Source of the DNA: Octopus vulgaris
Lineage: Eukaryota
Length of the DNA stretch: 64,000 nucleotides
Direction of reading: 5' to 3'
Assembly: GCA_951406725.2 (NCBI GenBank)
Contig: OX597827.1
Span: 58,528,001 to 58,592,000 of the forward strand
Made by a program: the position numbers. The stretch's first letter is position 1, and every line of letters begins with the position of its first letter. Shown piece by piece: positions 20,209 to 23,200 of the stretch.

Positions 20209-23200
20209 TATGTATGTATGTATATATTTATTTGTATTTTTTTTATAATTTAGATCATAGTGGTGTCATGATTGGTGAATGATCTCAGTTAATCTTTTGT
20301 TCTGATAATGTAATTGTTTTTCAGTTATCGGAAGTTCTAGCCAAGGTAAACACAGGGTAGATTCTCCAAGCCTCCAGCAGGTTGATTCCTTCTTTTTGCT
20401 TTCAACAGTCCAAATTGCTTTAAGTTTCCCATGAATTGGGTTGCTTTATCTGCCTTGAAAATTTGGCTTTCAATTTGGGATCATAGATTTTTTTTCTTTT
20501 TACCCCTTTTTTTCCCCTTCTAAACCTCAAAGCCTTTGTTTTTGTTTGTTCATAACTTATGGTCAAAAACACTTGGACAGTTTATATAAACTAAAGGTTT
20601 CAAGATTTGTTCAACCTTAGCCCTTAAGCATTCAGATTATTCTGGTAAATATTATGCTTAATTATTCAATTACTTTGTAATTAATCATGCACCATCTCAT
20701 AGCTGTGAGATTTTGATGTTTGTGTAGATTGACATTGTAGGATAGGTGTGAGATACCAGATCTGGTTGGTTTGAACATACAACAGGTAGGATGTTTAGGC
20801 TGGATATGGCCGGTTTAACCCTTTTGTTACCAACCTGGCTGAAACTGGCTCTGAGTGCAAATGTCTTGTTTTCATTAGTTTTGATTTAAAATCTTCCACT
20901 AAACCTTAGTCACAATTTATGTTCCTAACACTAGCTTAATGATAACTAAGTTATTTTACTAAATTCTTTGTTATGTTTAAAGTAATTGAAAGAAACACAG
21001 AGCATCTCAACAGAAATACAGTAATGAAAGGGTTAAATGCTAAAATATTACAAAATGTAATACTTTATACACAGACATCATTATCACTCTACATTGATGT
21101 TAGAGAATTAACTAGGATTAATTAGTAAGAAATATATTTATGTTATCATTATTTTTTATTGATTACTTGTTTCAGTCATTGGACTGTGATCATGCTGGGT
21201 ACCATCTCGAAGGGTTCAAATCGAACAAATTGACCTCAGTACTTTTTTTGAAAATCTGACCCTTATTTTATTGGTCTGTCTTGCTGAAACTGCTTGGTGA
21301 TGGGGATGTAAACAAACCAGCATTGGTTGTCAAGTGGTGATGTAGATTTACACAAACACACATATATAATAGATCTACACACAGTTTTCATCTACCAAAT
21401 TCACTCAATGCATTGTAGGATCGAACCCAAAACCATGAGGTTGCAAAGCCAGTTTCTTAACCACATAACCATGCCTGCGCCTATGTTCTTCATCATACAG
21501 CCATGCATTCATTTGTGTGAATTATCTTTTATTAAAAAAAGTATTGCATCTTTTTATATCCTAAACTTGGTGTAAAAGGGAATTTAACTAGCATATTTCT
21601 TCAAAACCTACACTAACAGTCATTGCTTTTTTAACATGAAAATCTGTATTTCATTATATTAAACCATTATTTTGTCTGGCATTTTATCGACAGGTGATAT
21701 TCTTTCTAGAATCTGTTTTAGAATATAATATTCAAAGAACATTCAAACCACCTTGATTAATGCTTCCATCCTGGCTGACCGTGTTGGTGCTAGTGCCACA
21801 TAAAAAGCACCTGGGCTGGTGCCACATAAAAACACCTATGCTAATGCTAGATAATAAAAACATCCATGCCCAGTGCACTCTGTAAAGTGGTTGGTGTTAA
21901 GGAGGGTACCCAGCCATGGAAACCAAGCCAAAACACAGGAATGGAACCTGGTGTAGCTCTCCAGCTTGCCAGCTCTAGCTGAACCATCCAACCCATGCCA
22001 GCATGGAAAATGGATGTTAAATGATGATGATGATTCTAATTCTATAAAATGATTCAATTCATCACACAGACATACACACATGTTTGTGACTTTGATGCTT
22101 GTATGCTAGAAGATACTGACATTTCAGAGTTATCCCTTTTTGAAAGAAAAAAAAAAAAAAGTCTTCAGAAGGATGGATGGCCCTCCCCTGTAGAGTTTTT
22201 TGTGAGACAGACCATGACCAGTTTCTTTGAACTCTGGTTTAGTTATATCATTTCTGTTGTCCTTTTGCAGCTGGATTTCAATGCCAGCTTGGATTGGGTG
22301 ATTCTGTTGTAAAGTTATAATGGGAGTAGGTACTGAAAGAAAAATTAATTGGTTAAGCTATTAGCGATAATGATGGTGATGATAATATGAAATCAAATAA
22401 TACTTTAGATGACAACATCCTGGATTATTGATATTCACTATGCTTCAATCTGTTTGATCTCCAACCATTACCAGCTACCAAGTCCAAATTTCGTACATTT
22501 ATTTCAGGTTGGATTCAAACTAGGAACCTTTTGTTTCTAAACTAATTGCATTTACACCTGTATCTGTCACTGTCAAAAATTTATCTTAGTAACGATGTAT
22601 CTCAAAATGTTAGGCATTTAACAGTTTTTATTGATGTAAAGTTGAAGAGAATAACTAATTTTTTAAACTATTATATCCTTCTTTTTTCATAAAAGTATAG
22701 CTAAGTTTGGGGTTTGAAAATTTGGATATTTAAATCTGACTTGGAGCGTTTGCTTTTACTACACTTGTCCTTTCGTAGTACTTGTACATTCACAACGAAA
22801 TATTCAGTCACAAGAGAAGCTTTTATATTACAGTTAGGCCGACTGAGGCAAGCAGAGTCATGTAATTTGCCCGTGAGACATATTACAGTGACTTCAAATC
22901 AACCAAGGGAATGATGTGTAGTCACTTAACCCTTTGCCTTGTGTATCACATGTGGTACAAAGGATATTTTTTTCTGGGTAACTTGGTAATTATGAAAAAA
23001 AAAAAAAGCTTTATATTACTGAGAATGTATGAAACGAGGGCCTAACTAAAAGTCTGAAAACAATGATGGATGTTTAGGACCAACTTATGAAAATGCTTCC
23101 TACAGGCAAAGGATTAGCTTGCATATCTGCACATTGGTTATTTTAATGTAAGGATCAAGTGCTTAACACTTTTGTGTTCATATTACTCTGTCAAATGTAG

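What the first reader, a model, noticed from the sequence alone, without database searches (positions are those of the whole stretch)
20325..20345. One-heptad microexon (LSEVLAK) that would lengthen p150Glued CC1 in register
Seen: a 21-nt phase-0 exon with a tttttcag acceptor and an AAG|gtaaac donor, between ...TIELKEQ and VDAALGAEEM. Inclusion reads L-KEQ-L-SE-V-LAK-V, keeping hydrophobic residues at 4-3-4 spacing. Known: CC1 binds the dynein intermediate chain and governs dynactin autoinhibition, and ELKEQ-VDAALG is contiguous in human DCTN1. Inference: a tunable, possibly neural, length switch in CC1 that I do not recall being described.
Basis: partly seen in the sequence, partly recalled or inferred. 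Interest (0 to 1): 0.7.

Follow-up and report, generated by a model that had tools for sequence, protein, structure and literature searches.

The report
Octopus dynactin one-heptad alternative microexon
A real 21-base optional exon in the octopus dynactin p150 gene adds exactly one turn-repeat to a coiled coil at a very conserved spot; it is already in public gene models but seems undescribed in papers.

Summary
Window 20325-20345 reads LSEVLAK, with a tttttcag acceptor and an AAG|gtaaac donor, between exons ending ...TIELKEQ (18531) and starting VDAALGAEEM (29830).

It is more than chance. Of 222 open in-frame AG..GT candidates of 3-30 nt in that intron, it alone reaches its own splice scores.

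It is already annotated. Octopus sinensis dynactin subunit 1 isoform X3 (P0002) and an O. bimaculoides UniProt model (P0004) contain ELKEQ-LSEVLAK-VDAALG. P0003 and P0005 skip it, so it is an alternative cassette exon.

Of 204 junction-spanning dynactin proteins from across animals, only these 2 Octopus entries carry an insert.

The insert is a canonical heptad (a=L, d=V) in register with the upstream repeats. Monomer models predict it as helical, with no break.

It falls between residues 429 and 430 of mammalian p150. That lies in the CC1B section reported to bind LIS1-N (420-455), N-terminal to the intermediate-chain site (PMC7615804).

Neural regulation is untested, and the flanks lack the usual neural-microexon motifs. 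I found no paper describing the exon. Interest is moderate.

The parts
6685..63302 (+). Part of the dynactin subunit 1 (p150Glued, DCTN1) gene that lies in the window. It encodes residues 72-1022 of P0002; the 5' (residues 1-71) and 3' (residues 1023-1299) ends lie outside the window.
   Evidence: tblastn of P0002 on the window. 18 of 18 fully bounded exons translate to exact substrings of P0002, O. sinensis isoform X3. P0002 carries Pfam PF01302 and PF12455.
18372..18531 (+). Upstream constitutive exon (160 nt), ending ...NQTIELKEQ with donor CAG|gtaatg. Encodes P0002 residues 372-424.
20302..20324 (+). 3' splice region of the microexon. It holds a candidate branch site CTGAT (20302-20306), a short pyrimidine run and cag. 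The acceptor is weak compared with the gene's other acceptors.
   Evidence: (3 of 19 leave-one-out acceptor scores are lower). The branch site is a consensus match only, not shown to function.
20325..20345 (+). 21-nt phase 0-0 cassette microexon encoding LSEVLAK (P0002 residues 425-431), one heptad with a=L and d=V.
20346..20351 (+). 5' splice site AAG|gtaaac of the microexon, of median strength for this gene.
   Evidence: 10 of 19 leave-one-out donor scores are lower
29830..29934 (+). Downstream constitutive exon (105 nt), VDAALGAEEM...KADL. Encodes P0002 residues 432-466 and starts the near-invariant VDAALGAEEM motif.

Best explanation
This is a genuine alternative cassette microexon of the octopus dynactin p150Glued gene.

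Shown:
- It is 21 nt long, phase 0-0, with canonical AG/GT sites.
- It is included in some public Octopus models and skipped in others.
- It encodes one canonical heptad (a=L, d=V), in register with the heptads upstream.
- It sits between the residues that correspond to 429 and 430 of mammalian p150, where it splits the near-invariant ELKEQ-VDAALGAEEM motif of CC1B.
- Among the proteins I could see, it is confined to Octopus.

Inferred:
- Inclusion lengthens the CC1B coiled coil by about 1 nm without turning it. Seven residues at about 0.15 nm rise each is textbook coiled-coil geometry, recalled and not computed here.
- The CC1 hinge, CC1A, the basic region and the CAP-Gly heads would therefore move one heptad further from the intermediate-chain site, the motor-docking site and the ICD.
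- The insert also puts seven new residues into the stretch that in mammals binds LIS1-N and bends around it.
- The most likely effect is a change in the set-point of dynactin autoinhibition (CC1A/CC1B hairpin pairing) and/or of LIS1-N docking. That would change how readily dynein-dynactin complexes assemble in the cells that include the exon.
- Which tissues include it is unknown.
For: - Sequence and splice sites.
- No equally good decoy among 222 (3-30 nt) or 325 (3-51 nt) in-frame candidates in the intron.
- Two separate public annotations contain it: P0002 (NCBI O. sinensis isoform X3) and P0004 (UniProt O. bimaculoides). Skipped forms exist too: P0003 and P0005.
- LSEVLAK is identical in the two species.
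- 18 of 18 bounded window exons are exact substrings of P0002.
- Register: a=L and d=V, continuous with the upstream a/d pattern.
- AlphaFold2 monomer models give one unbroken helix in both forms: residues 4-132 at mean pLDDT 95.3 with the insert, and 4-125 at 94.6 without it.
- Position: in the phmmer alignment to PDB p150 chains the 7 residues are the only gap, between chain residues 429 and 430.
- Functional map of CC1B (LIS1-N 420-455, DIC-N 458-478, motor 480-521, CC1A/B hairpin plus ICD autoinhibition): PMC7615804, passages read.
- CC1 has folded and extended forms: PMC7353146, passages read.
- Flank conservation, n=202: L-4 0.99, Q-1 0.99, V+1 0.93, G+6 1.00, M+10 1.00 identical to octopus.
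Against: - I saw no transcript reads. Inclusion rests on computed gene models whose supporting evidence I could not inspect.
- The two species that share the exon are close relatives, so identical residues say little about constraint.
- The only other octopod model seen (Argonauta hians X4, P0006) and an unnamed cephalopod-like protein (P0007, 74-78% identical) both skip it. This fits either regulated skipping or absence of the exon.
- The acceptor is weak. That fits a regulated exon but also a low-level, neutral one.
- All functional consequences are inferred by mapping onto mammalian structures. Nothing here tests LIS1, IC or hairpin binding in octopus.
- The monomer models say nothing about the dimer or the hairpin.
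Confidence: 0.7

Rival explanations
1. It is a young, neutral exonisation. A stretch of intron happens to have usable splice sites and is spliced in at a low level. Annotation pipelines picked it up, but it has no selected function.
For: - It is seen only in Octopus: 2 of 204 junction-spanning proteins.
- The acceptor is weak.
- Both flanking residues are almost invariant across animals, so an insertion there could as easily be mildly harmful or tolerated as useful.
- No paper describes it.
Against: - It is present with identical residues in two species' models.
- The peptide is not just open. It is a textbook heptad in the right register with no helix breaker. Only 1 of the 14 open 21-nt candidates in the intron has L/I/V/M at positions 1 and 4 and no P, G or C, and that one is the finding itself.
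- It does not lie in an interspersed repeat.
- NCBI chose an including form as a numbered isoform, X3.
Confidence: 0.2
2. It is an eMIC/SRRM-type neuron-specific microexon, a member of the ancient bilaterian neural microexon programme. This is the 'neural switch' part of the first reader's reading.
For: - Its size (21 nt, in frame) and weak 3' splice site fit that class.
- Vertebrate DCTN1 does carry SRRM3/4-dependent, brain-enriched microexons (10.1101/2024.06.13.598849 passages; PMC12871342 passages).
- Dynactin is a neuronal transport factor.
Against: The reported cis code is UGC close to the 3' splice site, long UCUC-rich pyrimidine tracts and long AG-exclusion zones (PMC8797185 passages). 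It is not met here:
- There is no UGC within 167 nt upstream.
- There is one TCTC, at -42.
- The AG-exclusion zone is 37 nt, and only 4 of the gene's 19 other acceptors have a shorter one.
- There is no GCAUG within 300 nt on either side.
- The exon is not at the position of the vertebrate N-region exons 5-7 (PMC7353146 passage).
- No expression data were reachable.
Confidence: 0.15
3. It is a chance open frame between an AG and a GT in a long AT-rich intron, and not an exon at all.
For: The intron is 11.3 kb and holds 222 open in-frame AG..GT candidates of 3-30 nt, so such strings are common.
Against: - None of the other 221 candidates reaches its splice scores.
- Two public annotations include exactly these 7 residues.
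Confidence: 0.03

Closest known systems
Vertebrate DCTN1 alternative microexons (exons 5-7 of the basic region; brain-enriched, SRRM3/4-dependent DCTN1 microexon)
   Same: Same gene family. These are also very short in-frame cassette exons that make p150 isoforms (PMC7353146 passage; 10.1101/2024.06.13.598849 and PMC12871342 passages).
   Different: Those exons change the microtubule-binding N-region. This one lies inside CC1B, at a junction that is contiguous in every vertebrate protein seen. The papers I read do not give the exact position of the SRRM3-dependent DCTN1 microexon. That the vertebrate microexons lie outside CC1B is partly my recollection.
p150Glued CC1B as mapped in the dynein-dynactin-JIP3-LIS1 structure (PMC7615804; PDB 8pqw, 8pqz, 8pr0 and 8pr5 among the hits)
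   Same: The octopus flanks align residue for residue with mammalian CC1B residues 377-498. The conserved motif that the exon splits lies in the 420-455 LIS1-N section.
   Different: The mammalian chains have no residues at the insert (a 7-residue gap). Whether octopus LIS1 binds the same section is assumed, not tested.
Microexons placed beside coiled-coil or leucine-zipper interaction sites of motor adaptors (for example the fly syd/JIP3 microexon next to leucine zipper II)
   Same: A short neural exon next to a coiled-coil segment that contacts kinesin-1 and dynein-dynactin, proposed to modulate those interactions (10.64898/2026.09.05.749416 passage).
   Different: It is a different gene. 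That exon is recurrent across clades, while this one was seen only in Octopus. This one lies inside the coiled coil and is exactly one heptad long.

Membership tests
Dynactin subunit 1 (p150Glued, DCTN1) | CAP-Gly domain plus the dynein-associated (dynactin) domain in one protein, and orthology to known p150 | tested here: met
   P0002 carries PF01302 and PF12455 and is named dynactin subunit 1 isoform X3. 18 of 18 bounded window exons are exact substrings of it. PDB hits are all 'Dynactin subunit 1', with E-values of 6e-21 to 1e-20. The CAP-Gly exons themselves lie outside the window.
Alternative cassette microexon | Length of 30 nt or less, a multiple of 3, with canonical AG and GT | tested here: met
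   21 nt, cag|...AAG|gtaaac, phase 0-0
Alternative cassette microexon | Both the including and the skipping mRNA exist in the same species | tested here: met
   O. bimaculoides P0004 (included) against P0003 and P0005 (skipped). This rests on public gene models only.
Alternative cassette microexon | Junction reads in RNA-seq | not testable with these tools
   No read or transcript collection of cephalopods is reachable. A fragment search at 73-233 aa found only P0003 and P0004.
eMIC/SRRM-dependent neural microexon | UGC motif close to the 3' splice site | tested here: not met
   The nearest upstream TGC is at -168. The feature is as described in PMC8797185.
eMIC/SRRM-dependent neural microexon | Long UCUC-rich pyrimidine tract and long AG-exclusion zone | tested here: not met
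   One TCTC at -42. Pyrimidine share is 0.6 in the last 20 nt. The AG-exclusion zone is 37 nt, shorter than at 15 of the gene's 19 other acceptors.
eMIC/SRRM-dependent neural microexon | Weak 3' splice site | tested here: met
   Acceptor score 4.1; only 3 of 19 leave-one-out scores are lower
eMIC/SRRM-dependent neural microexon | Neuron-specific inclusion | not testable with these tools
   No expression data. Supplements of the preprint that includes O. bimaculoides tissues (10.64898/2026.09.05.749416) are closed.
In-register coiled-coil heptad | Hydrophobic a and d positions, no helix breaker, and the same phase as the flanking repeats | tested here: met
   a=L, d=V, no P or G, register continuous with the upstream exon (a crude scoring of my own). 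Helix unbroken in the monomer models. Dimer packing was not tested.

The most novel reading that the evidence does not exclude
Octopuses evolved a lineage-specific, regulated splice switch. It inserts one heptad into the most conserved stretch of p150 CC1B, the LIS1-N-binding bend next to the intermediate-chain site. Cell types could use it to retune LIS1- and IC-dependent dynein-dynactin assembly or dynactin autoinhibition. It would be a natural 'one-heptad ruler' experiment on a site that is otherwise fixed across animals.
Probability: 0.2. Interest if true: 0.6.

Novelty: new member of a known kind. Interest (0 to 1): 0.35.

Why it matters
Across the animal proteins seen, the residues on either side of this exon hardly vary. 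In mammals they lie where CC1B binds LIS1-N and curves around it during dynein-dynactin assembly (PMC7615804).

A natural isoform pair that differs by exactly one in-register heptad at that point would give dynein researchers a ready-made probe. It would show how much spacing between the CC1 hinge, the LIS1-N site and the intermediate-chain site matters.

For cephalopod biology it adds one more case of lineage-specific isoform diversity in a neuronal transport gene.

If the exon is only low-level noise, it matters little.

Tried and rejected
- **Short fragments.** A search for proteins of 73-233 aa centred on the insert found only P0003 and P0004, so it gave no independent transcript-like support.
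- **Apparent ungapped matches to the including form.** These appeared in divergent orthologues: P0169, P0172 and P0185, and more weakly P0219, P0224, P0234 and P0241. I rejected them. Their ...DLQ[DE]Q or ...ELKDQ directly before the motif is the normal junction, and the upstream match is heptad self-similarity.
- **Origin from a repeat or from the neighbouring exon.** Only the (TATG)n microsatellite at about 20072-20245 matches elsewhere in the window. The exon and its near flanks do not.
- **Neural or Rbfox-type cis motifs.** None found.
- **AlphaFold2 monomers.** Both forms give one long helix. This cannot address the dimer, the CC1A/B hairpin or partner binding. No multimer tool is available.
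- **Whole-window scans.** No Rfam family. Only two ORFs of 150 aa or more, both on the minus strand (10412-10894 and 42330-42791), which I did not examine further.
- **Collections not used.** Genome contigs holds only bacteria and archaea, so I did not use it. DNA-level conservation in other cephalopods therefore stayed unchecked.
- **Joined spliced model.** I never sent the joined model of the window's exons to any search. The window was searched by its upstream exon alone. Later searches used public proteins that the tools had returned.

Full report
**1. The observation**

Window 20325-20345 reads TTATCGGAAGTTCTAGCCAAG, which translates to LSEVLAK. It is preceded by ...attgtttttcag and followed by gtaaac. 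The exon upstream (18372-18531) ends ...NQTIELKEQ|gtaatg. The exon downstream starts at 29830 with VDAALGAEEM after ttttgtag, and ends at 29934. All three junctions are in phase 0. The window has no N. The flanking introns are 1793 and 9484 nt long.

**2. Is it more than chance?**

I built small splice-site matrices from 19 donors and 19 acceptors of this gene, leaving out the microexon. Scored against leave-one-out values, the microexon's donor is median (10 of 19 lower) and its acceptor is weak (3 of 19 lower).

The intron 18532-29829 contains these open in-frame AG..GT candidates:
- 14 of 21 nt
- 222 of 3-30 nt
- 325 of 3-51 nt

None but the finding reaches both of its scores. Across the whole window there are 119 candidates of 21 nt on the + strand (only the finding passes) and 133 on the - strand (none passes). 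Of the 14 candidates of 21 nt in the intron, only the finding has L/I/V/M at positions 1 and 4 and no P, G or C. The matrices are small and the test is post hoc, so this is supporting evidence and not proof.

**3. What the gene is**

I searched with the upstream exon alone (53 aa, longer proteins). This returned 7 proteins, including:
- dynactin subunit 1 isoform X3 of Octopus sinensis (P0002, 1299 aa, 100% identical, Pfam PF01302 and PF12455)
- O. bimaculoides entries
- an Argonauta hians entry

P0002 residues 72-1022 map to window 6685-63302 on the + strand. 18 of 18 fully bounded exons translate to exact substrings of P0002. The window is therefore the middle of the DCTN1 locus of O. sinensis or a near-identical genome.

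The joined spliced model of the window was not searched. Searches went exon-first, and then used public proteins that the tools had returned.

**4. The exon is already in public models, and it is alternative**

| Protein | Source | Microexon |
|---|---|---|
| P0002 | O. sinensis isoform X3 | included; reads ...TIELKEQ-LSEVLAK-VDAALGAEEM... |
| P0004 | UniProt A0A0L8GW13_OCTBM | included |
| P0003 | UniProt A0A0L8GWH2_OCTBM, same species as P0004 | skipped |
| P0005 | O. bimaculoides | skipped |
| P0006 | A. hians isoform X4 | skipped |
| P0007 | unnamed, 74-78% identical | skipped |

**5. Distribution**

Three sets of proteins contribute:
- A search with P0004 among longer proteins gave 2147 hits, of which the best 120 were listed.
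- A profile-free scan of 1.84 billion representatives gave 350 hits at E<=0.001, of which the best 150 were listed.
- A fragment search (73-233 aa) centred on the insert found only P0003 and P0004.

Over all 267 proteins held:
- 202 read the junction without any insert. That is 199 by my pattern plus P0257, P0258 and P0266 by eye.
- 2 carry the seven residues: P0002 and P0004, both Octopus.
- 33 are fragments whose similarity begins exactly at the V/M-DAALG motif.
- 30 do not cover the junction.

The named contiguous sequences include bivalves, gastropods, a chiton, an annelid, nemerteans, a brachiopod, a priapulid, echinoderms, arthropods and vertebrates. The insert therefore appeared only in Octopus. 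Each cluster shows only one representative, so rare isoforms elsewhere cannot be excluded.

Among the 33 fragments, many have unrelated residues ending in Q just before the motif. This suggests that an intron at this exact position is widespread. That is an inference from translated genomic fragments, not from gene structures.

**6. What it adds to the protein**

With a simple a/d hydrophobicity score, the register upstream runs a=V,K,I,T and d=L,Q,L,L, up to V(a) of VDAALG. The insert supplies a=L and d=V and leaves the phase unchanged. A register break sits a few residues after VDAAL in both isoforms (crude scoring of my own).

AlphaFold2 monomer models predict one unbroken helix in both forms:
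- with the insert (P0004): residues 4-132, mean pLDDT 95.3
- without it (P0003): residues 4-125, mean pLDDT 94.6

These models do not address the dimer or the CC1A/B hairpin.

The flanks are among the most conserved residues of the region. The share identical to octopus, n=202, is L-4 0.99, Q-1 0.99, V+1 0.93, D+2 0.96, L+5 0.97, G+6 1.00 and M+10 1.00. My selection pattern makes this partly circular for a few of these columns.

**7. Where it falls in the known structure**

Against PDB sequences, P0004 matches six distinct 'Dynactin subunit 1' sequences (E-values 6e-21 to 1e-20). The seven residues are the only gap, between chain residues 429 and 430 of the 1278-1286-residue chains.

Passages of PMC7615804 state the following:
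- CC1B 420-455 binds LIS1-N and curves around it.
- 458-478 binds the intermediate-chain N-terminus (DIC-N).
- 480-521 docks on the motor.
- These sites are highly conserved.
- Autoinhibition involves the CC1A/B hairpin and the ICD.

PMC7353146 describes folded and extended CC1. PMC3618186 maps the IC-binding fragment to 381-530, with 415-530 sufficient.

The insert therefore lies in the LIS1-N section, about four heptads N-terminal of the DIC-N site. It is inside the biochemical IC-binding fragment but not at the structural DIC-N site.

**8. Mechanism**

Shown: a regulated-looking, in-frame, in-register heptad insertion at a conserved point of CC1B.

Inferred: CC1B becomes about 1 nm longer. 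The hinge, CC1A and the microtubule-binding head shift by one heptad relative to the DIC-N, motor and ICD contacts. The LIS1-N surface is interrupted. The likely result is a change in hairpin stability and/or LIS1-N docking, and so in how easily dynein-dynactin assembles. None of this was tested.

**9. Neural regulation**

Features reported for eMIC-dependent microexons (PMC8797185 passages) are mostly absent:
- The nearest upstream UGC is at -168.
- There is one UCUC, at -42.
- The AG-exclusion zone is 37 nt.
- There is no GCAUG within 300 nt on either side.

Only the weak acceptor fits. Expression could not be examined.

**10. Literature**

Five searches found no paper on this exon:
- DCTN1 + microexon
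- octopus + microexon
- p150Glued + CC1B + alternative splicing
- microexon + heptad + coiled-coil
- dynactin + octopus + isoform

Vertebrate DCTN1 microexons are known (passages) but concern other parts of the protein. The library lacks most subscription journals, and bioRxiv supplements were closed.

**11. Verdict**

- The exon is real, already annotated, apparently Octopus-restricted and undescribed in the papers searched.
- I rate it a new member of a known kind, of moderate interest.

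Noticed in passing
window 48494-48520 (+): A second microexon of the same gene: 27 nt, phase 1-1, ctcctgttcag|...|gtaaat. It encodes the SSRQQSKSD stretch (P0002 residues about 858-866) and sits inside a 15-kb gap between exons ending at 44673 and starting near 60024. It is present in P0002, P0005 and P0006 and absent from the unnamed cephalopod-like P0007, which reads as the skipped junction would.
   Followed up: partly
junction before window 29830; proteins P0135-P0243 (33 fragments): Many unnamed protein fragments from the large libraries lose similarity exactly at the V/M-DAALG motif. 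They often have unrelated residues ending in Q just before it, as if translated through an acceptor. This suggests the phase-0 intron here is shared widely among animals.
   Followed up: partly
P0003 and P0004 residues just after VDAAL (window about 29840-29860): My crude heptad tracking shows a register break right after the conserved VDAAL in both isoforms. This is near where the mammalian CC1B is reported to curve around LIS1-N. It was not checked against coordinates.
   Followed up: no
P0005 (O. bimaculoides, 1189 aa) against window 17235-17313: P0005 lacks the residues of the 79-nt exon 17235-17313 and several later stretches that P0002 has. As 79 is not a multiple of three, this looks like an imperfect gene model and not an isoform.
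   Followed up: no
window about 20072-20245: A (TATG)n-like microsatellite and T-run lie 80-250 nt upstream of the microexon. Similar low-complexity stretches recur in other introns of the window.
   Followed up: no
P0001 (111 aa, unnamed): This protein reads from the upstream exon straight into intron sequence that matches the window's intron after 18531 (...ELKEQVMNSLSLL...). It is a retained-intron or genomic translation, 96% identical to the window's upstream exon.
   Followed up: no
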